DNA from: Schmidtea polychroa
Lineage: Eukaryota
Direction: 5' to 3'
NCBI GenBank assembly: GCA_044892525.1
Contig: CM097885.1
Span: 209,498,001-209,562,000 of the forward strand
DNA length: 64,000 nt
In this document: in pieces, positions 21,691-61,518 of the stretch
How positions within the stretch are numbered: position 1 is the first letter of the stretch
Layout: the number at the start of each line of letters is the position of its first letter
Notes under the pieces: generated by a model
Database searches by the model: none
Told to the model about the DNA's origin: nothing
The model's input: the letters and a program-made list of their open reading frames with translations, nothing else
Translations under genes and position numbers: made by a program

Positions 21691-21949
21691 AGAACACCAA
21701 AATCATCAATAAAATATATTGATAAATGAACTGGCTTTTACTAATAGTTTAAATTTTTCAATTCAATGAGATTACACAAAGTTAACACAATTTATGTTTC
21801 TGAGAGATAATCACTTTTTTCTGGTTCCATGCATCTCAAAATTATTGAAAATTAGTATTGTTGGGGTGCTGCTTGGTTGACTTTGATAAAAATTTCGATT
21901 CATGTCTAGAGGATGGTGGGTTCTTACACTAACATCTATCGCATTTCTG

Positions 21950-22128
21950 TCAACCTCAAGTAATACTCCAAATGATTGCTCTCACGACATGATACCCATG
22001 AATTGTTCCATGTTAGTACTGCATCATGTCGGCGAGACGTCAGAAAACAGGTAATCCTCTACCTTAGGACGACTCTTTCCTGATGACTCAACTTACTCTC
22101 ATCCGACGGCCGATAGAAGGTCTTACGT
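21950..22128 (-). ncRNA. Conserved structured RNA motif, copy 1 (predicted cis-element)
   Basis: Invariant CCTTCTATCGG (22110-22120, minus). Bulged hairpin CATGATGC-AGTA-CT-AAC-ATGGA-ACAA-TTCAT-GG-GTATCATG has the same geometry as copies 2 and 3. Confidence 0.7.
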
Positions 22129-22341: not shown

Positions 22342-22524
22342 TCAATTGCTTTTCGACTCAATGATAGCGATTTGGTTTTCTTTGGCGGCTTCCTCAAACA
22401 GAGCTTTTAAATCGAAAAATTCTGAAGCATTCTCCTCCCACGTTGCGCCAGCAGCTGAGATGACTCGACATTGCACACTGGCATTCGAGGTCGACGCGGG
22501 AGCGGATTCGATAGTCGCTTGCAT
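22342..22524 (-). CDS. Small ORF C (60 aa) immediately downstream of ORF B' in E1; unknown function
   Basis: ATG-initiated ORF in the GC-richer part of E1, 26 nt after the ORF B' stop. No recognisable domain. Confidence 0.3.
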   Translation of the reverse strand: MQATIESAPASTSNASVQCRVISAAGATWEENASEFFDLKALFEEAAKENQIAIIESKSN

Positions 22525-22550: not shown

Positions 22551-23093
22551 CTATTTCTGTTTTTTCTTGCGCTCTGCTCGTGATAGTTGTCGTCGCTTGG
22601 GCTTCAATGGTTGGATTGTAGTGCAGGATGCACTTGGTGTTTGGACAGATTTGGGCTTCACTTTACTGGTGCCCATGAAAACGACTTCATCGGTGCTTGG
22701 CGAGAGTACTGCCTCAATGCACTCTTGACAATATTTCTCTGAAGTTCGATGTTTATTAAGTGTCCGATCATAGTGGACAGGAAACACATTATCTTCCTCG
22801 GCTATTGGGATATTCACAATTTTCTGGGTCATCGATGCTTGAATGTACACTTTGTGCAGAGCTTCCGACTGCTCTGTGATGAGAAGTCTTTGCGAACGAC
22901 TTTCTGCGATTAAGCTCTCACGACAATGTTCGCTACGGAACAGCCTTTTCTGGGTCTCTTTCATTTGGGCAGGGTTGAACCAAGTACCATTTGAATGCCC
23001 CAATTTGAACTTGCAGACTCTTAATGGCCGCATTCTTGTCGCACAGGAGAAGCAAGGTATGATTTGACTATTTTTTTCAGGATTAGTATTCAT
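22551..23093 (-). CDS. Element-encoded ORF B' (180 aa), homologue of 53721-54205
   Basis: Shares KFKL..GTWFNPAQMK and KPKRRQLSRAERKK with ORF B ([28 protein letters not shown]). The ATG is directly preceded by a polypyrimidine tract and AG (TCTCTTATTTCCTTTATAG|ACCATG). Confidence 0.7.
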   Translation of the reverse strand: MNTNPEKNSQIIPCFSCATRMRPLRVCKFKLGHSNGTWFNPAQMKETQKRLFRSEHCRESLIAESRSQRLLITEQSEALHKVYIQASMTQKIVNIPIAEEDNVFPVHYDRTLNKHRTSEKYCQECIEAVLSPSTDEVVFMGTSKVKPKSVQTPSASCTTIQPLKPKRRQLSRAERKKKQK

Positions 23094-25576
23094 GGTCTAT
23101 AAAGGAAATAAGAGACAATAATTTAGAAGAAAAATTAGGTGTATTCGAAATAATCATGTGAAGGATTAGACCTTCCTTTTTCCAGTAATACATAGGAGTC
23201 TCCAACACTCATCGAAACTATTAATTCAGTAGTTCATTAACAGGACAGAGATGATCGATAGAAATAATAAAAAATATTTGGGAAAGGAAACCCATCCAGA
23301 CGATCTACTAGAATTACTTACTGATGTATTTAAAACCCGGAAGTGGATATAATTGTAATTAAGATAATTCATTTATTAAATTTATACTCACGGTTATCAT
23401 AGCAAAATTAATAGCAAAATTAATTTCAAAACCAGATCTAACTATTTTTACTTTATACTCGATTAACTACACTGATGGTACAAAATGTCATTAATAAATG
23501 AAGGAAATTGTTAACTTGATTGTATTATCGCTGACTTGTTTAAAACAAAAATTAAATCAAAAATTATAAATGCGAATTCCGGCTACAAGTAAACTCTCGT
23601 CACATTACGTGTTAAATCAAAACAACGGTTGTCCTTATCTTAGGACTTGCTATATGCTTATGAATATTCAGCTGATAATTTCATTTCTAGTTACCCAACA
23701 TTTTGAGAACAGATGTCAATTACTCAAGTGTTTCATGGATTAAATTTCACTAGGTTGTTGTCCATCTCAGTCGTGCTTTATCGGGTTAGTCTGCTGTCAC
23801 TGATATCTAAGCATCGGGTGGTTCCTAATCGGTGGAAATTTCGTGTGCTACTTACTGCTACCTCCCAATTCAATTTGGCTTGAGTGATTGCAAATTCAAC
23901 CGTTGATGTCTAGCAAATGTATTTGGGCCTCTGCTACTCACGGGTAGTATGATCGATGAGATTATATGTACTGGTACCGTTTCTCGTCTACGAGTCGCAA
24001 TGGTATGGGAAAAATTTTGACATTGTATATTTAAATCTGGAGATCCGTTTCGTGATCCTTGACAATCTTGCTATATCTTACTGAAGAACTGTACATTATT
24101 GTGATGGAAATGGAAAAAACAATTTTCCTTAAAGGCAGGTTTTGATAAAATCTGGCTTTGTTTAATAAATTTTATCATAAATTGTCTTGGTTATTTTTTG
24201 TATTTTGAATGAATTTTATGATATTTTGGTTAATAATAGAATTGCATTAAATAAGTTTAAATAACAAAATTAGAAATATAGAATTTCGTCATTGGGTATA
24301 TTGGCACGGTTCTGACACGGCACATTTTTATTATCCAATGATTAGTTAAAATTGTTTCAAAATATTTTTATGATTCGCGATGAATATTCAGATCGATTTC
24401 TCTATTAGCATAACTTCAACTTCGGCTAAAGATGTAGTCATTTACGTAGTTTTTCGTGGTTGGAATGAACTTTCGAAGAATGCATTTTTATGGAAGATGG
24501 TGTCAACGACGTACTCGAAAAATTTCGTATGAAAACTTTGCCGTAACCTCATTAAGACGAACTCCTAGACAAGATGGAACGTGGATACCTCAATCACTGT
24601 GTGGATATTCTGGCTGGCACCTCATACCTCTCTATTACGACAAAATTCGATTTGTACCATTTACTACTATCATTTAATTTTTATTCCGAAATTACCGAGG
24701 AATTTACTAAGACCTTCACTGACAGACCCGTGGAGAAGCCCCCACATTCCGGCCCGAAATCAACTGCGTGACTGAAGATGACCGCATACCCACAGGCTGA
24801 GCACCCCAAGGCCCTTCGCACGATAATATGTGGCATTTCAGCTCCGCGTTACTCGACAATCATCAAAAATTAATCAAGAAATTAAATCTTTATACCAAAA
24901 TTAATAATTCAAAAGTATTACTACCAAAATGTTCAATAAAACTAATGTTAAATTCGTATGATTACTTAAATAAGGAAAAAGGAAGAAGTAAAGTAAATTT
25001 TAAATTAATTTTTAATTTGTACTAAAGATTTACAGAATCATTAAAATAAAACAAAATTTATTAAATGGCTGCTCGAAATCCTTCAAATCGGAAAAAATTG
25101 AATTCTCGAAGAATAAATTTGATTAATGAATTGAGTGAATCTGTTATCTGGCTGATCGAGTGGTTATGAATATTTGCTTTACTCTATTACAGTTAGAATG
25201 AGAGGTAAATTTATCGTAAGAAGCGGCCCTTTTATATTGTTACGCTAAAATTTCTCAACCAATCAGAATTGACTGCATTGGATTTTTATGTTTGATTTTG
25301 AAAAATAAAATTGGTGAGTTCTTACTGGTTGTTTTTTTTTTGAATTTTAATTAAATATTCTATTTTTGTTGTTATAATTATAAATTTTTAATCGTTTTTC
25401 TTGTAATTGTTTAGTTCTTAATTTTTTGTTAATGATTTTTTTTCCTTTTTAGTTTTTAATTGTTAAAATGAATTTATTTAAATTTGTTTATTATTTAATC
25501 TAGTTTAATTTGTTGCTTTCTCGTTTAAGTTACTTCTACGATAATTTTACCGCTTCTTTCTTTTAAAAAAAATTTC

Positions 25577-26139: not shown

Positions 26140-26574
26140 TGTTGGCGGGCCGCAGGGGAAACAGGGCTGGTTTAGATGACTATAATGTTGCGTTGTTTTT
26201 TATGTGACGTGCACAATCAAGGTTGAATTAGATGATTTTAATGTTAAACTGTTCTTATGCAGAGTGTAATGGTGAATTTCGTTTGTTGGAGTAGCCTTGA
26301 ATTGAGAAAGAAAATAGATCCGGGAGTACAATCAAAAAAGAGAGGAACCAGGAAAATCGGACACAGACCTTCTATCGGCAGTCATTGAACCCAAGGAAGT
26401 ACTGGACAATTATAGTATACAGAGTATGCTCACGTTTTGCTAGTACTACGACCCTTGATACATTACCAACGTTGATCACTCAACGGGTATCAAGTGGTCA
26501 AATTTCAATTGTATTCTCGGTTACGCTAAAAATAGCACGACGAGGTAAATTGTTTGATTACATTTAACCCATCA
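26140..26574 (+). mobile_element. Short member (E4, 435 bp) of the giant LTR-like family retaining the 3' structured region
   Basis: 26340-26540 aligns with 54320-54511. It ends TAACCCATCA (E3 ends TAACCCACCA). A possible start TGTTGGC is at 26140, but no TSD is seen. Confidence 0.65.
26358..26539 (+). ncRNA. Conserved structured RNA motif, copy 2
   Basis: CCTTCTATCGG at 26368-26378. Stem GTACTGG/CTAGTAC encloses hairpin AGTATAC/GTATGCT. Bulged hairpin CTTGATAC-ATTA-CC-AAC-GTTGA-TCAC-TCAAC-GG-GTATCAAG. Confidence 0.75.
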
Positions 26575-43400: not shown

Positions 43401-46400
43401 AAATTAATGTGACATTCGTTTTTTGTCTACGACAAATGCGATAATGATTTCTTTTGGCAACAACAGTTGGAAAATTCATGCCACAGACTTGACATTGTCT
43501 CTTTTCCAAATCCACAATGGAGATTGATGGACAATATACAGATCAAATGGGTATGGCTGTCTCAGTTTGGTTTGATTCGTAACATCCGGGTGAATATCTT
43601 GAAGAAGAAGAAGAACTGACAGATGGCAAAAATGACGACCTGCTGGTATCGGATCCTTCGGAGGCAATGCATTAATCCCAAATTCAGTGTGCTCAAAAAC
43701 ACGAGAATATGGTAAAAACCTGTTTGGTAAGATTTTTCGAAATTGAGGATAGCGAAATGGTTTGCAGCAAGATACATTTGTACACTTGACCGCTTGAAAC
43801 ATGTACTTTGAACTCATTATGTGCTCCGACCGCCACAGTAGGTTTGCAACTTCTTCTCTGGAAACTCGCAGTGTTTCATTGCCTTCTGGTATTGGAATAG
43901 CCTCCGCATACACTGCATTTTTGTCGATGACTGTTTTACTCCATATAGATGCTAAGACATTCATGGAGTTAAAGAAATTTCTTTTTTACAATTCTTTGTC
44001 GATTATCTTTCCACTTGCACCAATATGTGAACCAAAATGTTCGTGATCAAGAACCAACCCACAAATGTCATGGGATAGAGGAGCCATTCTACGTTCACAG
44101 GGATTATATGCACTGTAGCCTCTTGAAGTAATAAAAACTATGTACATGTCAAGATCATATTCCAGAAAAAAACATTAATCGCCTCTTCAATAACTTTCGG
44201 ATACCGTGCATTCTCGTCTGGTCCTCCATCTGACCGTGACACCCAAAATGGTTTAACATTTCCGGATCTCAAACCGTTCATCATCAATTATGTGGCGTAT
44301 GTCCGTGCTATGACTGTAGGCATTTGATGTATCATGCTTTTCTGAACGGATTGCTATATAAGTTGGCCCAGTGTTCGATATCCCGGTTGCCTTGTCGCCA
44401 ATAATGTCATCGTTGATAGTTAGGAAGGCGTACACTGAAGGTATCAATTTATGTTTCTCGGCTACCACCATCGTGATCTGGCAATTTTACTCGGTACTCT
44501 GTACTCATCATAACTGGCTGCTCTTTACTTGCTGCTGCAATTCCAAGAGCTATTCTAGCTTTATCGTCTGGCGAAAATAGCATCGTGTTTTGTGGACCAT
44601 TAAGTGTGCATAGTTCCATAACGAGCCTGATAGCATCCAAACCAAACTGGACATCTTCATTTTTCTTCCGAGCACTGAATTGGGCTTTGAAAAGTTTCAC
44701 CGGAACCGTTTGTACATGTCTTTTGCCTTCATTTGTATTCCAGCGACGTGATATCAGACGTCTGTATACAGCAGTTCTTTCAATACTGTAACCTTTTTCA
44801 TTGAGCATTAGTGTCAGATCATCTAAAGTTTTCGGACATTGCAATAATTGAGATCGACATCCAGGATCAGCGACAGCTTCATTGGAACAAACGAGTTCCC
44901 AAATCACATTGAGAAGATCTGGATATTTCTGCTCCTTTCTGGGACGCCCAGGTTTTTCAAGTAATGTTTCACCTGCAGCTGCGGATAATTTTTGGTATTT
45001 TTCTTTTTTTTTCAAGCGAGATTTCTGTGCTCGAGAACGGTTAAGTCGAAGAGTTTGAATAGCTTGTTGGATTTTCTTTTTGCTAGTCTCCAAGTTCTTC
45101 AATTCCTTTCCTACAGCTTCTGAATCACCTAAACCTTTCTGTTGCTTTAATACAAGGAATGATATGTTGGGATTTACTTCATCCAAACGTTTTTGTTCTC
45201 GTATTTCTGCTGGTGTATGACGTTTTATATCTTCCAACACATTCTGCTTTTCAACCTCGTTTCTACTCGATTCACTAGTGATGATTTTCGATTCGTCGAC
45301 AACTGAAGTATGACTGATTGTTTTGTCCATAACTGTCGCAATAACAGTTCACCAACAGATGATTCAACAGACACAGATAGAACCTCCTGCAATAATGTTT
45401 TCTTTGCTGGAATGTTTGTCCAATAACTCAGATTCTTTGCTTTTCGTTTTGCTACAACCATTCTTAAATCGTTCAGTTTCGTTTGGTTCTGATTTAATTC
45501 ATTCCATAAAGCCTGCGCTTCTGTCAGCTGATCGTGCTTTGATATGTCCGGATGTGCAAGAGCATACGTATTCACTAGATCTTGGTATAGATCTGGCATT
45601 TTGTTAACTTTACTTTTCTTGAACATGTCTATAGTCATCCGATATTAAAAAGTTTTCTTTAACATTCTAATTTAATGATTTATTTATATTAAAATATAAA
45701 CTAATAAATACAACTAGCGTGACGTCACGTTCAGCTCAACTCACCCACCCACCCACGTCACGTTTCGTCACTTTTGAAGGAACCCACCCACCCACCTTCA
45801 AGTGTGACGTAATTATGCAATGACCCCATATACAATGTATTTTTCATTTTCATAATGAAACTAAACTTTTAAATGTGGTTGACTTTTATATGCGGCCCGC
45901 CTGCTTTCTAGAAATTAACCATGTGGCACAGATGCTGCAAAAGGTTAAACCCTCACGATCTAGATAAAATAGTTTCAAGTTTAAAATTTTTCTTTTCTAA
46001 ATACAGAGTAACACAAATAAAATTTAATACAAAAAATCTTTCATTACTAAGCTTTGCCTGTTTTATTCTGCAAAGCATATATTTATATCCGGGAAAATCG
46101 TTGTATACTCGAGTTTTAACTGTTATTCTATTCAATCTAGATTTTTCCTAGATACTCGTTGATACAAAGAACATTAAGTATTTCACAGCTCTCGCATTAA
46201 TCTCTGGAAATTTATTTATAATTTGAAGTCAAAAATGATGGCAATTTTTTTTACTTGCAATTGAGAAGTATCGCATAATTCTTCAAAAGGATTTTGAATT
46301 CATATATTTCGGATAGGTTTAGGATATTGTTGTAGCCTGTCCCAGAAATATGGAATATTTTGACAACTTCGCAGAATCCAGTTTAAGGAAGTGTATACTA

Positions 46401-49400
46401 AAAGCCCGCATTATTTTATAAAAATATTAAAACAATTTCCCACATTTAAAGATTCTTAAATTGGAATTTTTCAGATGTTTTGAAAAAAAATCCAATAAAT
46501 TGTTTTTGAATTTTTACTCAAACAAAAGTTTGATTGCACGCGAGTGGATTTGATGATATTTTACATCGATTTTAGGCCGGGGTTCTAATACATGGATTAG
46601 CCCCTTAGGTTGTGCCATGTATACATGTTTAATTCCGATACGTATTCGTTCCAATCTCGGAAATTCAATGAGTCTCATTCAGCACATAATGGCTGTGAGT
46701 ATTATCGAGGCTATAAATTTTCTCTGTTGGTTTGAAGTGAGTAAAAATTCAACTTTTATACCTTTAATTTCAGATAAGTAATTAAAATACCGAACCATTA
46801 AACTTCAATTTTTTTCCATTGAATAATTTTACACCACATAAATAATAATATAAAAACTAAAAGAATTAAATGCGAGAATAATAATCACCACTGTCTGTTT
46901 AGTAGCCACCTTCTCCTGGCGATAATATATAATACGAAATATTTTAAATTTCGCGAATTTTTTTTTAAGTGCAATATTGATTTTGAGTTCAAAGTGCAAT
47001 TTTGACTATAGTCAGATGCTCTTTTTATTTTTGACTTTAGTCAGGGAACTTTTAGAGAGGGTGCTCTCTTTTCACACTCTAAAAAAGAGATAATATTAAT
47101 TTTTGGGTGTAAAGAAATGTAAAAAATGCAAAAAGTGCAATTTTTGTGTGTTTTGATGGTTTGAAATTTTTCAAAAATTGATTTTGTAAAAATATATAGA
47201 TTTTGGAAGAGAACATTCTTTTGACGACAACTTTTACGAAACTCTGAGGAATCTGTAGACAAGGATTTAAAGTTTTTGGACGAGAAAAATTTTTTCAAAA
47301 TATATAGAAATTAAAGACTTTCAAATTTTTTGACCAAATAATTTTTAAATTTTCAGTATAAGATTGTCAAATTTATGAAAAACAAAATTTTTTGAGTCAT
47401 CTTTTAGTCGTGCTATATTGCCAAGGTTTCAGAGAAATTTTAATTTTTTATGTATAGTATGTTCTATAAGGCTAAAAATATTAAAACTTCAAGATACCAT
47501 TAAAAATCAAAATTTCATTATAGTGAATATATTTTTTAATTGACTGTATAAGTTGGCGAATCCACAGAAAACTCATCGTGACTCGTAGGTTGGGAACCGG
47601 TGCTTTACACTTTTAATTTGAATGAATGTTGTATTCGATCAGTGGTTCACAATCCACGGACCGCGGCTCAAAGGTGGGCTTTGACAAAGGATCTGGTGGG
47701 CCGCGATGAAGTCTAGAAAAAGTACAAAAAGTAGAAGAAAATAAAAACTAAATCGGCGTTTACCTCAAATTGAAAGCAGCGGACTATACGGATGCACGTT
47801 GCAGAATTGTAGATTTCTAGTTTATCTATTCTACTCTATCTATTCTAGTAGCACAGTTTTAACAGTGAGTCAGTGTACCGGCTCGGTGAGTGTTACCCGC
47901 GACGACGTCAGCAAACGCATATTGCATTTTAAGCACTGTTTATTTATGTTTATTTGTATATAAACTATAAAAGGATAATAGTTTACATTTCACCGGCAGT
48001 TTGCGCACCTTTTCGGAGATATTTTTATTGTTTTGAGTAAAGTTAGAGTCGTTAGAATTATAGAAAAAATTAAAACGGTAAAACGAAAGAGGTGATGATC
48101 AAGATAACATTTCAATTGATATCTGTAAGAAAACCAAATATACTCGAAAATATTATGTGGAAATTATAAAATACAGTTTCGTACCATCAGAAAATGACGA
48201 AATAGGTGTTAAAGTATCGTACTTGATTGCCCTGAGAATTGCAAAATTAAAGGAGCCTCACACTATTGGAGAAGATCTTATCATGTTAACTGCTATAAAG
48301 ATTTGCGACATATTTTTTGGCTCGAAATACGCTATAAAATTGAAAAGCATTCCAATCTCGAATGACACTGTCAGCAGGAGAATATCTGAAATGTCAGATG
48401 ATATTCTAACGCAATTAACTGAGCGATTACAGTCTACTAAATTTACAATTCAATTAGATGAGACAGGTGATATCGCTGGCGAATCACAGCCACTTGCTCA
48501 TGTTCGATATTGTTGGCAAAATGTTGTGGAAAAATAATTTCTGTTTTACAAGTCATTGCCAGCTAGAACAACGGCGGATGAAATATTTTGAGTTATAAAC
48601 GAAATTTTTACAACTTATGGACTGCTGCAGTGGATGAACTGCGTCGGGGTTTGCATCGACGGCGCTGCAACAATGACAGGTCACAAAAGTGGTGTTGTAA
48701 CCCGCATAAAACAAGTGTCACCTGATGTCGTATACACTCATTGCATGATAGATCGTGAAGCATTGGCTTCGAAAAATTTGAATGAAACTCTGGGGTCTGC
48801 ACTCGATGACTATGTACGTATTGTAAACTTCATTTAAACTAGAACAGTGAATAGTCGACTATTTGCTCAACTTTGTATTGAGGCATATTCAGAACACAAA
48901 CATCTCCTATTGCACTGAGCTATTCGTTGGCTCTCCAGAGGGAAAATTCTTGTGTTGGGCTAGAACTGAATTCTAGACCCAAAATACACATTGTGGCTGA
49001 AATGTGTAGGTACACAGCAAGTAAAAAAGCACCAAGTATAATTAAATATTAAAACCTACACCAAATAAACAATGGTAATTAAACAGAGAAAACAACAAGA
49101 ATAATAAACACACAAATTAAATAAAATTATACAAAAGCAAGAAGTTATGCAAAATCTAACTCAAAAATAACCAAATAGACATAGAATTACCAAAAGCAAA
49201 CTCGAATAACTTAAAAGATGGTAAAAACAGTAAAAAATTCCAGAAAAACCCAGAACATTCCATTAAAATGGCGATGACCATCACAAAAGCCATAAAAGTT
49301 AGAGAAAATAAATAAATTAGTATTAAAAATAATAAATCTTAAAAAGAAATTCATAAAACACCAGTTGGAATAAAAATTAAATTAAAAGTAAAATAGAATG

Positions 49401-52400
49401 TTCTGGAACCGTTCCAAATCCATCATGGACGTCAAATTAACGAAAAATAATTAAAAAATAAAATTTTAAAAATAAAAACAAAAATTATGGCATAAAAATT
49501 GCCATTAAAAATATCGAAATTACAAAATAGAAAATTCTGGAATAAAAAGAATTCGAGTTTGTTTTAATGCATCAATACATACACGTGTACAAAATAGGTA
49601 TATATACTGACACGTTTCAGTCACAAATCATCACTTTTTGCCAATAAATTTTTGTTCAAAGAAAATTTTTGTCCAGGAAACTAGCAGTAAGTAGTTTTCC
49701 TTTTTGGTATTTATTATTTTTCATTAATATTAGTATTTTTATGTTTTAAATGTAAAATTATTTTAATGAATTTAATTAATCTTAACTTTTCATCTAACTT
49801 AGTTTTACCTTTTTGACTAATCAGCGACGTCTTAGTGCGTCGCTGTTTAGTCCTGCATTTAACATTAATTTTAAATGACAATTCACAGGCAGACAAGCAA
49901 TATATTTTATATAAAATTTTTTTTGTTTTGTCATCGGAGGTCGGCCACTTCATGGTTCTACTATGGAGTTGTGTCGATAAAACCCCTCCGCTATGGCTCC
50001 ATATATTTATTTATCGGTCGACAGTGATGTTTCGACCCAACATTACAATAGGGCTTGTCGTAGCGGTCACAGTGGGGCCGTGTAAGCAAGCATTCTTCCC
50101 GAGTTCCAATGCAGCACATATTTAAAATCAACATTAAAAATCTCATACATTACTTCACACTAAGGTCATAATTGAGTAGATCTCAGACCCAAATTAAACA
50201 CAGCAATTACAATTCAGTTAATGTAGTCGGTTAAGACCTCTCCACTTATGCGTCTGTCGAACATCGTTAGTAAATAAAATTTTTTTTAAAAAAAAAAATG
50301 TGAGGATTTTTCTCGGATCTGATTATGATGATAGCATCTCGAAGTTCGACAAGCGTAAAGGATGGAATAGATTCAATTAAGTATAAAACCCCCAACGAGT
50401 AGTATATATCCTTATCTCAGGATTAAAAGGTAGTATTGCCAATACCCAAATCAATCAGGAGTTAGGGTTATATTATAACTTCTTTTATTTTTCATTTATA
50501 AATCAATATCAATGAAGCATTATTATTTTAGAAAATGTAATATCACCAATTATAAACTATTATCGATAAAACCTTTTCAATTTGTAAATAAAACTTTTTA
50601 TGTGGATGTCTATTCAACTATAAACTTATGTCTATTCAACTGTAAAGCTATATTAACAACTATAACATAGATATGCGTGATCCTAACTTACTATTCAATT
50701 CATCCCTCAATTAGGAATTACAATCGAGAAACTCGTATAAAATTGTAAATGATCTTATCGATAAAGGATAAATCTTACTTGAGTTTATATACTAGGTCTA
50801 AACTAAGAGTCTCCCGCAATCGTTTAACTATGAGTGTATACTTGTTAGCTTATATATAAAACATGGATTAAAGGTATAATCTGATCGTTAAACTACTAAA
50901 TATATATTGGTTAAATTATAAAAGGTGATTATAATTATGTATATAATATAAGTCAAAAATATGCTCTAATCATTAAACCATAAGATAAAGATTAGTTAAA
51001 TTATAAATTATGACTATAAACTGTATATAAAATCTAAATCAAAAATATACTAAACTATAAAGTACCTATTAGATAAAAATATAACTACAAATTATTTATA
51101 AAAAATGATATATATAAATTATAAAATAGAATTATAACTTGTATAGAAAGTATAAATTAAAAGTATATTCTGATCATGAATTCTAAATTATATCATAAAA
51201 GATAGTATATATATAGTTATGTATTAATTATATGAGTAGCTAAAATAGAATTATAACTGGTATAGCAAGTATAAATTAAAGGTATATTCTGATCATGAAT
51301 TCTAAATTATATCATAAAATATAGTATATATATAGTTATGTATTAATTATATGAGTAGGTTATTCCTAAAAACCCAAACTACAACTAATTATAGATAAAA
51401 TTTTGATTACCAGAAGATAAACTGTAATTAATTATATATAAACATTGAGCGTAAAATATAAAGTACAATTCATTATATATGAAACTTATCGGTGTATTAT
51501 TCCTAAATAGGTAAATTATGAATAAATTTTGGTTACAAAATATAAATTATAACTAATTATATATTTTGATTATGAAGTACAAAGTGTAAATAATTATGTG
51601 GATTATATAAATATATGGCTCTTAAAAATTTAAATTATAAACGGTGTAAATTATAAATCATGATAGTATATATATATATATATATATGTGTATATAAATT
51701 ATCTAGGTATTCCAAAAGATAGTTATAGATGAATATTAGTTACAGCAGTAAATGATTACACTCAATTTCCGAGCTTTAAAAAGCTCAATTATAGATAGTC
51801 GTATTGCGAACCATTATATACATATTACGAATGGTAAAGATCCCTGCAAAATGGTAATATAGCAATCCGAGATATAAATCTGGAAAATGACAAGTACCTA
51901 TAAGATGCGGTCAAAATTTGTTCTACCTCTGAATCAGGTATTATAATATGACATTCTAAATCACGGGTGTTAAGGTTTCAACACCCGACAATGTCTTAGC
52001 TATTTATACCTCTATTGACTATCAAAATGATTATGGGAGTAAAAATCAGTTGTTAAATTATTTCGCACACAAAGTAGAGATTGACCTACAATGTTCCAGT
52101 GGTGGCCTGTTTAAAAGTGACCTGAGACTCGGATCTTCCAAAAATCTTAGCATGATCGCTCCAGGAATAGGGTTTCTAGAAACCGGTGTCGTTCAAGCAT
52201 AACCTATAAAATCACATCAAATAGGTAATGACAAAGGATACCCTAAGCTCTTATAGAATCAATGGTGACGATACAACGTATGAGTGGAATATGGTCTATA
52301 AATTAATAGACAACTTACTAAATTCCCATAAAACAAAATTCCAAAAACGCCGACGAGAATTGAGGGCAGGTTAACGTTGAAAATCAAAGAAACTTTCCAT

Positions 52401-55400
52401 AGGAGACAGGTCGGAATCATGACCCACTTTCATGTCAAAACCTGAAAGCGCATATACCTGAATTGCTAAAGTTGTTATGAATATATTAGCAGTATGCACC
52501 CCTCGAACGACTTCACCAACGAAGGAGCATTGGAACCCAGTTCCACAATAAACCCGTTCGCCAGCGAAATCTTTCTCTAGGGCTAATTACATCAAAATAG
52601 CATAAGCTGAATCATAACAATCCAGCCTAAATATAATTGCAAATAGAATATATGCCACGATGTAAATAATTATGTAATAATGTTAATTCAATAAAACAAC
52701 CAGATTTCTGTTTTAATTTTTTCTAATAAAAGTTAACCAAACCAAAAATTCGACGATTTGGGAACAACCACGAGCAAAATATAAATTTTCGGGGTACAAT
52801 ATTTCTCTTTTTGGTTACTTACTGCACAGGTAATAATTCGTTAGGATGTTTTCTTCCGATGTTTCTAGGTTGAGGCTATAGGGTGATGATAAGTAACGAC
52901 TCCCCATTTTTGCTATAAATTTGTCATCTAATTCACGACAAGGCACACTATCATCAGTAGGGAGTAACTATTCGCTCGAATCACGGCTTTACGTCTTAGT
53001 AGAATGATAAAAAAGATGAAATTTCAAGAAGAAAATCAGCATTAACCATTTTTATTTAATCATAGAATGTCGCAAGCAAGTGGTCCCGACGAAGCGGAAT
53101 ATAGGCAAATGATAACGCGGCTCCGGACCCGGTACATCTGGTACCGGATCCACGATTGGAATCGGGGGTTGGACCTAGATAATTATGGTCCGGTCATTCG
53201 GAGTGGCCCAGAGCCCGATGCCCCGGCGTGGGTGAAGGTAGAGCCCACTAACAACGTGCTCCGGGAAGCCCGCGATCGAGCGGCCGATGAGGTAGTAGAG
53301 GCCCAAAAGCGGCTGAGGAGACTCGAGCTCCAACTCAAGGCCGAAACGTTGGGGATAGCTCTTGAAGAGCTGGAGGAGACCGATGCCCCTCCACGAAAAC
53401 GGGGGAGGCCCCGCAAGAACCCGGCCTAACTTATCGACAATCGCGGCCTGAATAAAACGATTTTTACTGATCTTATTTAGTGATATTTTAGTAACATAAC
53501 GAATTGTATTTCTCTTTTGTTTATCAAACATAATCTATCGTGTAGTAATGCAATAAATTATATTTTTTTTTATTTATACTTTGGGCTTTACAGCTAATGG
53601 GGCGTATTCATAATTGAGGTGACCCTTTTCTCATCACCCACTTATAAATTCCATGCATGTACTCTAACCAACTTTGCGCACCAGAAGGCGAATGAGGGGA
53701 TTTATTATTATTTTCTTCAGTGTACCAGTTATTGGAAAACCTACGAAAGGACCGCGAACAGGCCCAGCAACAATCCGAGGGTCTCCGAGGTCGGGTCGAA
53801 AAACTCAAGCTGAAGTATCGAGAACTCCAAGGTACCTGGTTCAGCCCAGCCGAGATGAAAAAACAGAAGACCCACATCTCGCAACTCCAGACCCAGGCAG
53901 AGCAAGACCAACTCGAGATTCGGGCGTTGAAACTACAAGTACGCTCTCTCGAAAGCAAATTGAACGAAAAACTCATACAAGACGCCCTCCAAGAGCAGAT
54001 CCGCCCTCTCCAGGTGGAGCTAGCCAGAATATACCCACCAGCCCCGACAGGCAAGCCGAAACGTAAACGGCTCGGGCGGAATACCCGCGACAAATTGAAA
54101 AGGGCCTGGCTGGCCGAGCAGGAGAAGTTGAAAGAGGCTGGGGCCAATCCACGTTCCCAAAAGACGTTCGAGAATGCGACCCTCATGAATAAACCAACTC
54201 TGTAAAACAGTAGTAATTTAATAAGTGATTCTGGTTGTGTAATAAATATATGATCGAACTTTGCGTTGACTTAAACCGAAAGGATTGGTAGAAAAGCGTG
54301 TGGGAAAACAATCTCGACGAGGGACCGAAACAAATCGGACACGTGCCTTCTATCGGCGTCCGTGAACCCATCGCGTACTCGACAATTATAGTGCCTCGAT
54401 GCGCTCACTTTTTGCGAGTACTCAACCCTTGGTACAGTACCAACGTTGATTGCTCAACGGGTACCAAGCGGAAAAACAATGTTGTATTCTGGGTTACGCT
54501 GGTAACAGCACTTAAACATTCAACCACCAGTAACCCACCACTTGAAAGAGTGTTTGAACTTCGTTTGGAATTGTTACAGTTTTTGGCTTTATTATAATTT
54601 TGTGATAAACCCTTTGAAATTGTTGAATCCAATTCTGCATTAGCACTTGAGTTATAATTTATTTGTGTTTGTTTAGTCTGGAAACGTTTCCAAGTTATTT
54701 GTCTCAGAGATATTCAAAGAGATCAATAAAAAGTGTAAAGTGTACACTATACACGAGTAACAATTGTAACAAAATTAATATTTAATAACACTTAAAAAAA
54801 AGGGTTTTCAACGAAAATAATATTTATATAAAAAATAGTAAACTAGTCATAGGATATTGAATTTTGGTAATATTTAATTTTATACTTTACCCAAATTTTT
54901 AGAAAGATTTATTAAAAATAAAATGGCCTAACGATGTCTATTGGAATCAACATGGAAAAATAGCTGGAATAATATCAAAAGCTGTTACACAAGATAATTA
55001 TTTTTATTGTTTTTTAGGTGGGTACCATATATAAATGTAATTGTAATAATGAATTATTAGGAGTTGGTATAAATGTGTCCAATAGTGAACCAACGGTTTG
55101 TATCCATGATATCATTAAGTCATCTAGTAAAGGCGAGGTTACCAATATAAATTACCCTTCAGTGGAAAAAGTTATTGCTCATGTTTTGACTAGATTCGAA
55201 AACAATATTGATCTAATTCAATCTACTGGAAATGAAATTGAGAATTTTAAAAGCAAATATTACAAACATTGGATGCACAAGTATATACATTGATAAAGTA
55301 AAAATTTCAAAACTATTCAATAGAGATCAGGTTGTTACGGTTAAAAATGGTGAAAATAGTGTAAAAGGATCAATAATCGGTATTGATGATTTTGGGTTTT

Positions 55401-55495
55401 TACAAATGATGCCTCATGATAACTCTGAGATTGTTACATTACATCCCGACGGGAATACTTTCGATATGATGAATAATCTAATTATGCCTAAATAA
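40407..55495 (+). CDS. HLCS: Holocarboxylase synthetase / biotin--protein ligase, 9 exons, ~524 aa
   Basis: Exons 40407-40691, 40742-40900, 40952-41068, 41125-41405 ([19 protein letters not shown]), 41450-41514 ([13 protein letters not shown]), 46576-46736 ([21 protein letters not shown]), 54903-55017 ([16 protein letters not shown]), 55061-55280 ([19 protein letters not shown]) and 55324-55495 ([28 protein letters not shown]). All junctions are GT-AG and phase-consistent, and all biotin-ligase signature motifs are present. The start codon could alternatively be at 40485. Confidence 0.95.
42699..45954. mobile_element. hAT-type MITE that hosts the Zator insertion
   Basis: CAGTGGCCAACCCGCAGGCC on the left and TGCGGCCCGC...AAAAGGTTAAACCCTC on the right, with an 8-bp direct repeat ACGATCTA on both flanks. 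Confidence 0.5.
42882..45827 (-). mobile_element. Full-length Zator-superfamily DNA transposon (2,946 bp); transposase frameshifted
   Basis: 24-bp TIRs GGGGTCATTGCATAATTACGTCAC with a 3-bp TSD ATA. Minus-strand transposase pieces: [75 protein letters not shown], and a C-terminal CQVC..H..IC zinc finger. Confidence 0.88.
49599..49692 (+). promoter_or_regulatory. Predicted TATA box and first 5' splice site of E3
   Basis: TATATATA at 49599, conserved in E2 as TATAAATACTGAC. Consensus donor CA|GTAAGT at 49686/49687. Confidence 0.5.
51122..51360. repeat. Tandem duplication (~120-bp unit x2) in the AT-rich island of E3
   Basis: TAAAATA(A)GAATTATAACT..GTATAAATTAAA.GTATATTCTGATCATGAATTCTAAATTATATCATAAAA.ATAGTATATATATAGTTATGTATTAATTATATGAGTAG repeated twice. 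Confidence 0.9.
53067..53429 (+). CDS. Element-encoded ORF A (120 aa): short coiled coil and C-terminal AT-hook
   Basis: Intact GC-rich ORF ending [13 protein letters not shown] (RGRP AT-hook core). AG acceptor at 53064-53065 just before the ATG; AATAAA at 53451. Confidence 0.7.
   Translation: MSQASGPDEAEYRQMITRLRTRYIWYRIHDWNRGLDLDNYGPVIRSGPEPDAPAWVKVEPTNNVLREARDRAADEVVEAQKRLRRLELQLKAETLGIALEELEETDAPPRKRGRPRKNPA
53721..54205 (+). CDS. Element-encoded ORF B (~161 aa): coiled-coil protein with basic C-terminus, entered through a splice acceptor
   Basis: Intact GC-rich frame with heptad-like L/Q/E/K content, [10 protein letters not shown] and KPKRKRLGR. Preceded by TTTATTATTATTTTCTTCAG| at 53720; AATAAA at 54241. 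The in-frame start seen on the genome is only GTG. Confidence 0.72.
54336..54511 (+). ncRNA. Conserved structured RNA motif, copy 3
   Basis: CCTTCTATCGG at 54346-54356 within CGGAC/GTCCG. GTACTCG/CGAGTAC encloses AGTGC/GCGCT. Bulged hairpin CTTGGTAC-AGTA-CC-AAC-GTTGA-TTGC-TCAAC-GG-GTACCAAG. Confidence 0.75.
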
Positions 55496-55828
55496 TTCAA
55501 CGATTTCCTATTTTCTAGATGATGTTTGGTTTTGTAATTAGGCTTTTGGTTTCGACTTTGATCTTTTTAAATTCAGTAATTTTCATATTAATATTTGTAA
55601 GACCAAAATAATATTGGTAGATTACGAGTCTGAAAACTTTTCATGTTGGTACTTGCTTTATCCTATCAACACTTTCTCTCCTTGGAACTGAGCATAACTA
55701 TTTATTTAACCACTTCCAATGGATTCCCTCGACTTTGCATTTCCTCATCTTCGTCCAATCTAACTAAACTGAAAAAATGTAGACGAACCATGAACGTCAT
55801 TATTTCATAAATTCTACAATTAGACTTT

Positions 55829-56060: not shown

Positions 56061-59000
56061 TTTATTTTTGGTTTGACTGAAAGCTGGAATAAATTGTCCG
56101 TTTAATCTATATCTTCGTTAACTTTTTATCGATTTTTTTTGTATTTGTATTAATTTCTCTATAGCAATAATTCCCTATAGGAAGTACACTATATTGTTTG
56201 TGCGATAAACGTGATAGTAACTACATTGTAATTCTTATTCAGAATTACTTCATTATAGCAAAAAAAGTACTCTACATAACTTCGGAGATTAACATTTGCA
56301 TATAACTTATTTATTTGTTTTTTTGTTTCTCTAACCATTTAAAGATAACAATTATCATAAAAATTACATATTTACAAGTTCTGTTTTCTTTATTGAAAAC
56401 TTACTAAAAATATAAAAATTGTGCAACTAGCATTGTTTGTGCCTGTGTTTTGTTTGTTTATGTTTGTGTTTTTACTTGAAGTAGTCGCTGTATCGTTTTT
56501 TTATAGGGGTGTGATTATTGAGTTTTTGTCGAATAGTTTTGTTGTATATTTATGGTTGAATGTGATGTGTTTGTGTTTTGTCTGTGTTTTTGTTTGGGTT
56601 TTGGGTTGTGCTTTGTCTTTTGGAGAGTTGTTTTGAGGGTTTTGATTATGGTGGTAAGGTTTTATTCGTTTGATATATATTTTCAGTTTGCTGTTGTTTG
56701 TGATTGTTGTGGCCACGTTTTTGTTGATTTCTAGAAGTTTGTATGGACCTTCGTATTTGGCTTCGAAACCTTTTAAAAACCTTTGTTAAAATGAAATCCG
56801 TTATTCCCACTATTTTCCCATCCAATCCTTTTAGTTTCTTTTCTGTGTTTTCACTGTTTTTGCTAGTTATTTGTTTGTTTGTTTCTGTTCTGTTGTTTTT
56901 GAGTGATGAGAGATTTGGTTCTCTGCTGAAGACTTTGTAAAAGAGACTTTCGTTGTCGATCAAGTTGGAAGTGTTCCTTAATTCCACTAAAATTGTCGGT
57001 AGTTAAGTAAGATAATTTCTGTCGTTTACTTTGGTTCTGATGCTTTGTTTAAGGGTCCTGTGTAATCTTTCGATTTTCCCGTTCGCTTGTGGGTTGTAAG
57101 CGGTGGTTCGATTACGTTTTATTTCGTATTTTTTAAATAGGCATTAGATAGTTCTGATTTGAATTGTCTCCCTTGATCCGTTATTAGTATTTTGTCCGTA
57201 GCGAGCTATTCAATTTAACTCGATGTTTTTGCAGATGCTTGCGGATATTTCTTCCAATTGGATTATTTCGAACCAGTTTGATTTCATGTCTACTATTGTT
57301 AGTAGGTATTTGTATTCGTTGTTTGGTGGTAGCGGTCCTTCTATGTCTGTGTCTTCTCTAAAGCTTGGCTGCTTTGGAAGTTTACTTTTTAGACCGTGGC
57401 TCTTTTGTGATTTTGTTGATTTGGCAACTTGCATGTTGTGACGAAATTTTTTGTTTCTTTTAGCCTGTTTGGCCATAAATATTTTTATGTGTTGCCCTGT
57501 TTCCTGGATGATTAATATCGTGTATCTTCGAGATGCAGGTCTTCCTGAACTCTTTTAAGAGTATTCTTAGTTTATTTTCGTTGCTGATGTCGTATCAGGA
57601 TTTATTGATTTGTTCTAGTTTTAGACTATGTATTGGCAGTTCTTTTAGTGTTTGTGATTATTTGTTTTTGATTGTTTCTACTTCGAACATTTCGATGAAT
57701 TCAAATGCATTTATGTCTGTTTCGGTTCTTGACAGAGTGTCAGTCGCTATGTTTGGTGCTCCCGCGACATAATTGATTGTACAATTAATTTTGGACATGC
57801 AATTTATTTGTCTTGTTTGTCATAGTGATGGATTTTTTATTTGGATCGCGTTTGTAAGAGGTTTGGTCAGCATTGTTGGGTTTTTGGTAATTTAAGTCGG
57901 TAGCCTCTGACTCCTCGTGTCCTTTTAATCAAAAAAAATAAACTACCCAACGTATATTTGAATCACAAAAATATATTTCTCTCAACAATAAATAATCAAT
58001 AACCAAAGTTCACGTTTGATCAATTCTTCGATCGGTGTTGAATATTATCTTTTGTCAAAGCATCATCTTTTTATTCCTTAGCTTCTCTTGAACAACGTTT
58101 CCCTTTTTCTATTTGATTCTTTTTCACTTTTTCGTATCTCCTAATCTATATTTCCTTTTTCCCTAAACTCCTCAATTCGTGTTTTCCTTTTCCTATCTAA
58201 TTTTCGTCTAACCCTAGCTGATGCAAAATGCCAATTATTTTGACTTTGTTTTATACTAGAGTAATCACTTTGATTAATCGGTTTTTGACCTGATTGCTCC
58301 TTTCTGACAATGGTTTGACAACCGGCTCCTTGAGCGTTGTTTGCACCATATCATGATTAATTAGCTCCCTTCGCTATTCCTTTGAAATAGTCCTAACCCA
58401 TTCGATTGCTTTTCGACCTTTTCTAACCATTTTCTGATAAATCTCTAATCATCATCTTGTTGACCATTAGCTAATCTATACCGGTCACATTTTCCCAATT
58501 CAATTTCGATAACTTTACAATTTATTGATTTTTCTCGAATTTCCGGATTCTTGCCTTTCGCAACTGCTTTTGCCATTTCTTAATACTGCTTCCATCATAC
58601 TTTCCTTTACTATCAATTCTGTGCGTGATTACGCTTTTATTTGTCTTTTTCCTTCACTTACTTATTATTTAAATTTTCAAACTAAATTTATTTAAGTTTA
58701 CTGACCTCAACAGTATAAATCTTGAAGTTCCTTGCCTCTAGTAGGTGTTGAAAATGTATTATAGCCTCATGAATTGCGAACAGTTCTCGATCAAATGTTG
58801 ATTATCTTGTTTGGTATAATTTTAATTTGGAAAAGAACCGATTGGTTGTTTGTCGAATTCATTGTTTTTTTAAAGGGTTGCTCCCATTGCGTAACCGGAA
58901 CAATCTTTGCTAGGTTGTAGTCCGGGTATCCTGGTATCCAAGTACTGTGGATTTAGACTAACTTGTTTTTGCTTTTTCGAAGTTTTTAATTGTTTACTCA

Positions 59001-59387
59001 TTCCACCTTATTTTGATGTTTCGTCTTGTTTTGATTAGGTCATTTGGGGGGGGGGGGTTAAGAGTTGGCTGCATAGTAAGCGTGGTAAAAGTTTACCATG
59101 CCCAGGAATCATCTGAGTTCTCTTTGTGTTTGGCGGTTTGAATAGTTGGATGGAGTTTATTTTTTTTCGATTGGTTTTTTGCCTTTTTCATCCATTTTGT
59201 GTACGAGAAATTTTTATGTATTTGTATTAGTAATTTTTATGTATTAGTAATAATTTTCTATAGGGAATTACACCATATAATTCTATATAGCTTGTGTGTA
59301 CGATAAACGCGATAGTATCAAAAGTAACTCTACATTGTAATTCCTATTCAGAATTACTTCATTACAGCAAAAAAGTATAATATAACA
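56061..59387 (-). mobile_element. Internally deleted Gypsy/Ty3 LTR retrotransposon
   Basis: Direct repeats at about 56100-56290 and 59190-59387. Minus-strand pol remnants in Gypsy order: FLGMVNFYH (end of RT), FDRELFAIHEAIIHFQHLLE..IYTD..KPL (RNase H), then integrase IEGPLP..YLLTIVD..NW and TTAYNPQANGKIERLHRTLK. Confidence 0.85.
57874..58712 (-). mobile_element. Solo LTR (L1-like, 839 bp) inserted in the RNase H of the Gypsy element
   Basis: On minus it starts TGTTGAGG and ends CCAAAAACCCAACA. Flanks GCAT/GTAT form a 4-bp TSD with one mismatch. It splits the IYT|D..KPL motif. Confidence 0.8.
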
Positions 59388-60176
59388 GTACACTACAATA
59401 TATATCAAACATGTGCCATCGACTCAATATTAACCATTGATTATTGAATGAGAAAGCCAGTTAGGGAAAGAGTCGGTTAGTGTTTGGGTGATGGCGTCAC
59501 CTTCCTCTCCGCCTAACCAACGATATTGGATCAGAGTGAATCATGAGTTCGCTCTATTATTTTTCTTGCTGAATGCATATATCTATTTCATTAATTAAAT
59601 TATTCAAATCATATCTTTAAGAAACATTTTAAATTTAAATTATTAAAAAATATCAAATTACAAAAAGGAAAATAGAAATATGAAAGATAACAAATCCAAC
59701 AAATCCACTGGTCGAAGGAATATCATTCTGCCGGTTCCCGTTCCAGCTTCGTGTTTATTTCCTCTGCATTCCAACATCATTGACTCATGATTTCAAGTTG
59801 ATCTTATCAAAATCATTGAATTCCTCTTTTATAATTCTGTCTTATCTGTCACTAACAATTAATCGAAACATTGGTGCATCATCCTGCTCATATCGCTACA
59901 TCGATCATATTCTCTAATTAAAATAAATCGAATTTACTTATCCACCAACTCACTGACATTTATCGCTCCGATGTCTGCTTTTCGATTCATTTTGCCAAAA
60001 AAAGAATTGCATTCCGATTTTCATTTTCTAAAAGTATCAAGATTTTTCTATATTAAAATGTAATTATTTTTTAAAGTAAAGGATTTATTTGGCTTTGAAA
60101 TGACACTTTACTAAATATAAGAATAAAAACAGCATTTTATAGAATAAATATTTAGAATTACTTTTAAATTCCTTAG

Positions 60177-61022: not shown

Positions 61023-61518
61023 CTGATTGTTTTGTCCATAACTGTCGGCAATAACAGTTCACCAGCAGATGATTCAACAGACACAGATGGAACCTCCTGC
61101 AATAATGTTTGTCCATTAATTCAGATTCTTTGCTGTTCGTTTTGCTACAACCATTCTTAACTCGTTCAGTTTCGTTTGACATGTAGATGGTTCTGATTTA
61201 ATTCATTCCATAAAGCCTGCGCCTCTGTCAGCTGATCGTGCTTCGATATGTCTGGATGTGCAAGAGCATACGTATTCACTAGATCTTGGTAAAGATCTGG
61301 CATTTTGTTAACTTTAATTTCCTTGAACATGTCTATAGTCATCCAATATTAAAAAGTTTTCTTTAATATTCTAATTTAATGATTTATTTATATTAAAACA
61401 TAAACTAATAAATACAACTAGCGTGACGTCACGCTCAGCTCAACTCACCCACCCACGTCACGTTTTGAAGGAACCCACCCACCAACCTTCAAGCGTGACG
61501 TAATTATACAATGACCCC
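61023..61518 (-). mobile_element. Partial second copy of the Zator element (5' end)
   Basis: Near-identical to 45316-45827, including the TIR, with small internal deletions. Confidence 0.9.

What the first reader, a model, noticed from the sequence alone, without database searches (positions are those of the whole stretch)
53721..54205. ORF B: an uncharacterised small protein family with a GTWF[SN]PA[EQ]MK signature
ORF B (E3) and ORF B' (22551-23093, E1) look very different overall: one is coiled-coil rich, the other carries two CxxC pairs. Yet they share, at similar positions, K[LF]KL-x(3-5)-GTWF[SN]PA[EQ]MK near residues 36-38, and a basic block KPKR[KR]xLxRxxRxK near the C-terminus. Retention of short motifs against a diverged background suggests selection on the protein. 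I recognise no known domain. The basic block could be a nuclear-localisation signal or a nucleic-acid-binding segment (inference). The base composition is much more GC-rich than the host genes in this window.
Basis: partly seen in the sequence, partly recalled or inferred. Interest (0 to 1): 0.7.

Follow-up and report, generated by a model that had tools for sequence, protein, structure and literature searches.

The report
Repeat-encoded basic coiled-coil protein family
The small gene is real and belongs to an unnamed family of paired-helix proteins with a positively charged tail, carried by a very abundant, still unclassified jumping element that ends in a folded RNA the protein may bind.

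Summary
ORF B and ORF B' are true homologues over about 80 residues, not only in two motifs (BLASTP E 1e-6; 0 of 5000 shuffles). Seventeen unnamed database relatives define the family: helix, [GS]TWxxP break, helix with ExRx[QL][RK], proline-rich linker, basic block. Twelve of 15 gene-model relatives are fused to unrelated host domains, as expected for a mobile exon; none to RT, integrase or Gag.

ORF B starts at a splice acceptor, lies in a host intron behind AT-hook ORF A, and precedes a ~190-nt folded segment present three times in the window. Contig depth is roughly 160-1400x the host exons over ORF B and 8,000-10,000x over the segment. A parallel homodimer is predicted (0.55 vs control 0.02).

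Best reading: an accessory RNA-binding protein of an unclassified, probably retro-type element. RNA binding, expression and element class are not shown. A Rev/RRE-like export pair is the bold reading (about 0.15).

The parts
53721..54205 (+). ORF B coding exon (phase-1 start at a splice acceptor); helix-break-helix core, Pro-rich linker, basic helix
   Evidence: 46% identity over 102 aa to P0001
53700..53720 (+). Polypyrimidine tract and AG acceptor in front of ORF B
   Evidence: sequence; likeness to sister copies begins at about 53716 and a 1-nt insertion at 53714 occurs in one X3 contig
53831..53860 (+). [10 protein letters not shown]: break between two long helices; family core [GS]TWxxP
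53915..53932 (+). EIRALK, the family's second conserved motif ExRx[QL][RK]
   Evidence: invariant E and R in alignment A3; 16 of 17 relatives
54053..54103 (+). Basic block (10 K/R in 18 residues); candidate NLS and nucleic-acid-binding helix
   Evidence: an Arg-rich block in 8 of 17 relatives; function inferred
54241..54246 (+). AATAAA after ORF B, upstream of the folded segment
   Evidence: sequence; use not shown
54332..54514 (+). Conserved folded terminal segment of E3 (candidate cis-acting RNA); right end approximate
   Evidence: depth about 8,000-10,500x host exons
53067..53429 (+). ORF A, 120 aa, ATG one base after an acceptor, C-terminal AT-hook-like KRGRPRK, AATAAA at 53451-53456
   Evidence: (AT_hook E 0.17, below cut-off)
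53594..53603 (+). Candidate 10-nt first exon of ORF B (acceptor, 3 nt, ATG, donor); one of 7 listed candidates, unproven
51720..53066 (+). Upstream part of E3, linked to ORF A in sister copies, about 10-30x depth; no recognisable coding
   Evidence: (contigs 19, 23, 25)
50851..51597 (.). AT-rich tandem repeats (85, 119, 37 nt) at the presumed left part of E3; membership not shown
22551..23093 (-). ORF B' in older element E1; own ATG three bases after an acceptor; long branch
22342..22524 (-). ORF C, short frame behind B'; no family match
21945..22126 (-). Diverged copy of the folded terminal segment behind ORF B'/C
   Evidence: its own fold is not better than shuffles (z -1.15)
26354..26538 (+). 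E2: third copy of the folded segment, 78% identical to E3's, with no ORF B homologue in front
25230..25265 (-). CCAAT-like and TATA-like boxes, possible promoter of E1
   Evidence: read by eye; not tested

Best explanation
ORF B is the main exon of an accessory gene of a high-copy mobile element, probably a retroelement. Shown: a conserved protein family, an acceptor at 53721, a repeat context, and a conserved base-paired segment at the element's right end. Predicted: a parallel in-register homodimer (residues 3-87) running through the TWxxP break, which places two basic helices side by side. Inferred: the gene is expressed from a spliced, separately polyadenylated message whose first exon supplies the start; the dimer enters the nucleus through its basic block and binds the element's own unspliced RNA, most likely at the folded 3' segment, to stabilise, package or export the template that is copied into new sites with its introns intact. 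The copying enzyme is supplied from elsewhere, since none is in these copies.
For: Family: 11 hits among 1.84 billion proteins, 5 more among 7999 candidates, 1 cluster member. Mobile exon: 12 of 15 MetaClust gene models join it to unrelated host domains (7 by scan; 5 by precomputed Pfam accessions). Repeat: depth over two ORF B bins is 160-480x and 470-1360x the host exons, against 0.4-84x in the spacer before it and 15-67x behind it (the tool warns depth is no copy number). Selection: 5 of the 6 listed differences inside ORFs A and B are synonymous (expected share 0.23-0.35; P 0.005-0.025), 3 of 4 in B alone (P 0.05-0.14). Dimer: score 0.55, best of 3 controls 0.02, runs agree in at least 98% of contacts, pLDDT 86; the mark was reached by 17 of 29 eukaryotic homodimers and 0 of 30 monomers. 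RNA element: sense strand folds better than antisense in E3 (z -3.93 vs -1.20) and E2 (-2.36 vs -1.03); 14 pairs, 40 of 40 cells paired, 3 compensatory changes, 13 of 500 shuffles as good. Both B and B' have it downstream on the same strand.
Against: No binding, localisation or translation data. No splice joint into 53721 is among the 15 joints listed (5 unlisted), and X1 contig 4 crosses the acceptor unspliced. The basic block of B is Lys-rich like an ordinary NLS, not the Arg-rich run of 8 relatives; 9 of 17 relatives lack that run, some by truncation. The folded segment is about 10-50x deeper than ORF B and E2 has it without the gene, so it does not need the gene in cis. Covariation rests on 3 related sequences. 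The synonymous count is 6 of 616 differences, chosen by the tool for support. Coiled coils may pass the dimer test from memory: only 1 of 7 eukaryotic pairs without an older solved relative passed. No RT, terminal repeat or target duplication was found, so 'retroelement' is inferred.
Confidence: 0.45

Rival explanations
1. DNA- or chromatin-binding regulator: the parallel dimer grips DNA with two basic helices (bZIP-like in action, reversed in order) and, with AT-hook ORF A, activates the element's promoter or tethers it to AT-rich chromatin.
For: In-register parallel dimer with basic helices at one end; neighbouring AT-hook-like ORF A; acidic and Pro-rich tails in P0002, P0005, P0006, P0013.
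Against: No bZIP Pfam match; HALZ only weakly in 2 of 13 rows; a 15-residue Pro-rich linker separates coil and basic helix; it leaves the conserved folded segment unexplained.
Confidence: 0.25
2. Host-interacting adaptor or decoy: the conserved TWxxP/ExRxQR surface binds a host partner (silencing, ubiquitin or cytoskeletal machinery), and the basic block is only an NLS.
For: The most conserved residues lie in the coil, not the basic block; short linear motifs recur in relatives: [YM][KR]I[PS][KR] in 8 of 17, PPxY in 2 of 17. Planarian Burro elements carry regulatory accessory domains (PMC6431247, passages).
Against: No partner is indicated; ORF B lacks both linear motifs; the Arg-rich run of relatives is longer than an NLS needs (own knowledge).
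Confidence: 0.17
3. This copy is a dead passenger: the family is real, but ORF B here has lost its first exon and is not expressed.
For: No ATG before residue 46; no splice joint seen; B and B' have long branches, 1.09 and 3.08.
Against: Frame intact; X3 contigs over E3 differ at only 0-5 letters in 224-584 with about 10-20x depth, which suggests a young subfamily; likeness to P0001 starts at the acceptor.
Confidence: 0.08
4. A host gene family or a fragment of a host or Gag domain, not an element gene.
For: Most relatives sit inside host-like gene models.
Against: The partners are 12 unrelated domains, at either end of the protein; GC is far above host exons; depth is hundreds of times the host exons; no Gag or host family match.
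Confidence: 0.05

Closest known systems
Rev-like proteins of complex retroviruses (HIV-1 Rev/RRE, HTLV Rex, MMTV Rem, JSRV Rej; PMC3856414, passages)
   Same: Small accessory protein, basic or Arg-rich block, self-association, a highly structured cis RNA in the same element. P0004 gives a weak Pfam REV hit (E 0.0013, 19.1 bits, cut-off 22).
   Different: No sequence family membership; predicted long parallel coiled coil; no conserved export signal; no gag/pol/env near; invertebrate host.
Coiled-coil ORFs of Terminons/Athena and coiled-coil ORF3s of bdelloid LTR elements (PMC6431247, PMC5408684, PMC8557442, passages)
   Same: Retroelement accessory ORFs with coiled coil and NLS, spliced ORF3 messages, a 3'-terminal RNA fold, intron retention by Penelope-like elements.
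   Different: Their fold is a hammerhead followed by telomeric repeats; here no hammerhead core in the segment, no Athena RT, intronic site. No sequence comparison with those ORFs was possible.
Burro/GYPSM1 giant gypsy elements of planarians (PMC6431247, passages)
   Same: Likely host group, thousands of copies, accessory ORFs, tandem repeats; E3 could be a solo LTR or an accessory region.
   Different: Described accessory domains (MATH, BIR, BCL2, ankyrin, SMC-like, env) do not include this family in the passages read; no second LTR, TG..CA pair or target duplication established.
LINE-1 ORF1p (recalled, no call)
   Same: Coiled coil plus basic nucleic-acid-binding part that chaperones the element's RNA.
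   Different: ORF1p is a trimer with RRM and CTD, upstream of RT; none of these is seen, and only a dimer was modelled.

Membership tests
Rev/Rex/Rem (Rev-like proteins) | Sequence membership in Pfam REV | tested here: not met
   No hit for B or B'; 1 of 13 rows weakly, E 0.0049; P0004 below cut-off
Rev/Rex/Rem (Rev-like proteins) | Arginine-rich NLS/RNA-binding block | tested here: inconclusive
   B has 10 K/R in 18; Arg-rich run in 8 of 17 relatives; function untested
Rev/Rex/Rem (Rev-like proteins) | Multimerisation | tested here: inconclusive
   Homodimer predicted, 0.55 vs control 0.02; a model, and a long parallel coil
Rev/Rex/Rem (Rev-like proteins) | CRM1-dependent nuclear export signal | tested here: inconclusive
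   Two loose pattern matches in B, residues 22 and 90; the second is not kept in P0001
Rev/Rex/Rem (Rev-like proteins) | Binds a structured response element and exports unspliced RNA | not testable with these tools
   A candidate structured segment exists; binding needs the bench
Rev/Rex/Rem (Rev-like proteins) | Encoded by a complex retrovirus with gag, pol, env | tested here: inconclusive
   None recognised in E1-E3; no whole genome held
Penelope-like elements / Terminons | RT with or without GIY-YIG endonuclease | tested here: inconclusive
   Not in these copies or fused to any of 17 relatives; could act in trans
Penelope-like elements / Terminons | Hammerhead ribozyme in the terminal repeat | tested here: not met
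   No CYGANGA..GAAA core in any of the three segments; Rfam blank. Naiad/Chlamys also lack it (PMC8557442)
Penelope-like elements / Terminons | Tandem or inverted pseudo-LTRs and target duplication | tested here: inconclusive
   One terminal segment per element; only chance-level duplications
Penelope-like elements / Terminons | Introns retained in genomic copies | tested here: inconclusive
   Acceptors precede ORFs A, B, B'; splicing not observed
LTR retrotransposon (Burro-like, solo LTR) | TG...CA ends with a 4-6 bp target duplication; paired LTRs | tested here: inconclusive
   One candidate 6-bp repeat (50243, 54509) is within chance; no second copy in the window
HDV-like ribozyme (3' segment) | P1, P2, P3/L3 with the conserved loop CG, nested double pseudoknot (features recalled) | tested here: not met
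   A 3-bp stem with 7-nt loop is present, but the loop lacks the CG, and P1/P2 partners are not consistent across the 3 copies
bZIP transcription factors | Basic region directly N-terminal to the zipper (recalled); Pfam bZIP match | tested here: not met
   Basic helix lies C-terminal, behind a linker; no bZIP hit
Polinton/Maverick component | Near-identical terminal inverted repeats, 6-bp duplication, pPolB/integrase/ATPase/capsid (recalled) | tested here: inconclusive
   The outward-facing E1 and E2 ends are too diverged for BLASTN to pair; no such genes recognised in the window

The most novel reading that the evidence does not exclude
An unclassified, intron-retaining invertebrate retroelement has evolved its own Rev/RRE-like pair: a spliced early message makes the basic coiled-coil dimer, which binds a new class of 3' RNA structure and sends unspliced element RNA to export or copying. 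Thousands of gene-less copies that keep only the RNA structure would ride on it. This would be a convergent complex-retrovirus control system outside Retroviridae, and a testable answer to how some retroelements keep their introns.
Probability: 0.15. Interest if true: 0.85.

Novelty: new variant of a known kind. Interest (0 to 1): 0.55.

Why it matters
A repeat end present at roughly 10^4-fold depth and a gene at 10^2-10^3-fold depth have no name in Pfam, Rfam, PDB or the papers searched, so a major component of this genome appears undescribed. The exon has also leaked into at least 12 database gene models, which are likely wrong. If the protein binds the terminal RNA, it is a compact new RNA-protein pair that can be assayed directly. 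Repbase/Dfam, the Grohme et al. 2018 paper (not held) and supplements were not seen, so the element may already have a library name.

Tried and rejected
No whole genome held, so no copy collection, flanks or dN/dS. Word-index searches with B alone (134 candidates) and B' alone (11) found nothing; only profiles did. ESM Atlas: generic coiled-coil neighbours for B (recognition 1926, weak), no usable hit for ORF A. PDB profile search 0 hits; Foldseek PDB 0, viral none under E 0.001; VIA-align best Z 6.5, tied generic helices. Profile comparison of the B subfamily with P0013 was weak (probability 7%, E 0.005), so the link between the two subfamilies rests. No loci in viral, metagenome or prokaryotic contigs. 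No RNA holder listed by record; no joint into ORF B listed; neither bears on expression. Rfam: 0 at gathering score, 1 chance hit at E 7.5; no tRNA. Rejected: hammerhead and HDV-like ribozyme; a start from a spliced leader ending in AUG, because it would read 53721 onward in a short other frame (leader end recalled; frame); E1+E2 as one inverted-repeat element (ends too diverged); the overlapping frame 53668-54066, because 3 of 4 variants are silent in B's frame and no relative matches it beyond E 0.017. Coding in 51720-53066 was not recoverable. One search printed the acceptor one base off; one search corrects it. Alignments A2 and the tool's translation show the GTG at 53720 as Met, an artefact. 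P0009 was left out of A3. The host gene name was not confirmed. The sigma-70 scan is irrelevant to a eukaryote.

Full report
Observation. The frame 53720-54205 (+) is open for 161 codons and 22551-23093 (-) for 180. BLASTP aligns them over 83 columns at 28% identity, E 1e-6. The local score of 78 was reached by 0 of 5000 whole-sequence and 0 of 5000 ten-residue-window shuffles, and B' is the best of 513 other window frames. The basic block is not at matching positions (112 of 161, 164 of 180). GC is 0.53 and 0.44 against 0.32 in host exons.

Gene structure. 53721 is the first base after an AG acceptor, in phase 1. The first in-frame ATG is residue 46, behind the conserved motif, so the start must come from an upstream exon. 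Seven donor candidates were listed: five would give a start codon split by the intron, two extend an upstream ATG, one of them a 10-nt mini-exon at 53594-53603. Earlier notes on this genome describe split start codons and mini-exons in Polintons (e1-7879902, e1-7879951; not checked). ORF A and ORF B' each have an ATG 1-3 bases after an acceptor, and ORFs A and B are each followed by AATAAA. No splice joint into ORF B was listed, so the first exon is unresolved.

The family. A profile of B+B' found 11 proteins among 1.84 billion, a wider profile 5 more among 7999 longer candidates, and a cluster look-up one. Two come from short ENA contigs and are close to B (46% over 102 aa); 15 are unnamed MetaClust entries closer to B'. 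The tree separates a B group (100/99) from the rest, with long branches for B and B'. Conserved are [GS]TWxxP (15 of 17), ExRx[QL][RK] (16 of 17) and, after a Pro-rich linker, a basic block that is an Arg-rich run in 8 of 17. Twelve of the 15 entries join the domain to unrelated host domains such as actin, a subtilase, an SNF transporter and CRAL-TRIO (names for the accessions recalled). That pattern fits gene models that swallowed an intronic mobile exon. None is joined to RT, integrase, GIY-YIG or Gag.

Structure. AlphaFold2 gives helix 2-36, a break at GTWFSP, helix 42-103, a linker and basic helix 119-136 (pLDDT 87.9, pTM 0.37). Fold searches return only generic helices. Two copies of residues 1-110 were predicted as a parallel in-register dimer over residues 3-87: score 0.55, best of 3 controls 0.02, at least 98% agreement between runs, pLDDT 86. 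On eukaryotes the mark was reached by 17 of 29 solved homodimers, 0 of 30 monomers, and only 1 of 7 pairs without an older relative, so this supports and does not show dimerisation. Trimers were not modelled.

Genomic context. Contigs of four public runs were laid on 51720-55500 at 80% likeness. In X3 and X5, which keep the host introns, depth relative to the host exons is about 13x upstream, 390-1300x in ORF A, 0.4-84x in the spacer, 160-1360x in ORF B, 15-67x just behind it and 7,900-10,500x at 54387-54513. Depth is only a rough guide, but the shape is clear: coding parts and the terminal segment are shared by many diverged copies while spacers are not. Likeness of sister copies begins at about 53716 and ends 6 bases after the ORF A stop. 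Five of the six listed differences in the two ORFs are synonymous; these six are the best supported of 616. X1 and X8 skip two host introns, and their mRNA contigs continue upstream outside the stretch, so E3 lies in an intron. Earlier notes call the genome flatworm-like and rich in Polintons and Burro elements (e1-7879953, e1-7879936; not checked).

The terminal segment. A ~190-nt non-coding segment follows ORF B and ORF B'/C on the coding strand and stands alone at 26354-26538. A 12-mer is exact in all three (0 expected). The sense strand folds better than shuffles in E3 (z -3.93) and E2 (-2.36), the antisense strand does not (-1.20, -1.03), and E1 alone is unremarkable (-1.15). Two helices around an 8-nt bulge keep 40 of 40 cells paired with 3 compensatory changes; 13 of 500 shuffles match this, from 3 related sequences only. 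It is not in Rfam and fails hammerhead and HDV-like tests.

Mechanism. Shown: family, repeat context, acceptor, conserved pairing. Predicted: dimer. Inferred: a spliced accessory message yields a dimer whose basic helices bind the element's own unspliced RNA, probably at the terminal fold, to package, protect or export it (0.45; about 0.3 chaperone or packaging, 0.15 Rev-like export). Rivals are a DNA-binding regulator working with AT-hook ORF A (0.25), a host-binding adaptor (0.17), a dead copy (0.08) and a host family (0.05). The element class is open. My rough split, by inference: Penelope-like or non-LTR 3' module 0.35, solo LTR or accessory region of a giant gypsy 0.35, DNA or Polinton-type 0.2, other 0.1. 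No RT, paired ends or target duplication was found.

Comparison with what is known. Rev-like proteins bind a structured response element, multimerise and carry a CRM1 export signal (PMC3856414, passages); ORF B may work like them but fails the Pfam test and has no conserved export signal. Terminons and bdelloid LTR elements carry coiled-coil accessory ORFs, with ORF3s expressed from spliced messages, and Penelope-like elements retain introns by an unresolved route (PMC6431247, PMC5408684, PMC8557442, PMC3846280; passages). Burro accessory domains named in the passages read do not include this family. PMC8532177, PMC11410931 and bioRxiv 10.64898/2026.07.22.740005 (passages) added nothing on it. 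Nine literature searches found no description; repeat libraries, Grohme et al. 2018 and supplements were not seen. The scan's own notes hold nothing similar.

Verdict. A real, unnamed element-encoded protein family in an abundant unclassified repeat with an unnamed RNA fold. It is a new variant of a known kind, the mobile-element accessory protein. Interest 0.55; 0.85 if the Rev/RRE-like reading (0.15) holds.

Noticed in passing
window 54332-54514 (+), 26354-26538 (+), 21945-22126 (-): Unnamed structured segment: a 3-bp stem closing a conserved 7-nt loop (paired variants visible in loose ends, read by eye), and two helices joined by an 8-nt bulge. Deserves its own study.
   Followed up: partly
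window 53067-53429: ORF A: diverged sister copies keep the frame (loose ends, translated by eye); no homologue search in the large protein sets was left for it.
   Followed up: partly
P0004, P0009, P0013, P0014, P0015, P0017; window ~23045-23054 (-): Six relatives have HxxC 16 residues before the TW motif; B' has CxxC 19 residues before it. In a parallel dimer this could be a shared metal site. ORF B lacks it.
   Followed up: no
window 25239-25250 and 26520-26531: A 12-bp direct repeat joins E1's promoter-like region and E2's end; its first 8 bases are also at E3's end (4 matches in the window, 0.66 expected). Chance, a terminal remnant or a target duplication.
   Followed up: partly
window 22109-22120, 26368-26379, 54346-54357: The antisense strand of the conserved 12-mer resembles, from memory, the start of the planarian spliced leader. 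Not tested.
   Followed up: no
P0003-P0006, P0008, P0013, P0014, P0016: The Arg-rich run resembles, from memory, RNA-binding peptides of Rev and phage lambda N; probably convergence.
   Followed up: partly
window 39069-41520 and 54903-55495: Host exons that look like holocarboxylase synthetase (recalled motifs, not confirmed by scans); two 43-nt introns are spliced in X1 and X8, and the mRNA contigs continue upstream outside 51720-54903, placing E3 in an intron.
   Followed up: partly
window 56134-59423: Decayed gypsy-like element on the minus strand with integrase-like fragments (by eye; Pfam blank) and diverged direct repeats.
   Followed up: partly
window 43476-45827, 61023-61518, 34914-36336, 48082-48834: DNA-transposon-like remnants, some repeated; class by eye only.
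   Followed up: no
window 28639-28995 (-); 16462-19111 (-): Jagunal exon (Pfam E 7e-30); cyclophilin-like exons across assembly gaps (by eye).
   Followed up: no
window 24684-24848 (-): 55-aa Cys/His-containing frame inside E1; no Pfam hit.
   Followed up: partly
window 21089-21364 and 49369-49630: A further diverged repeat (69% identity, opposite strands) near both elements.
   Followed up: no
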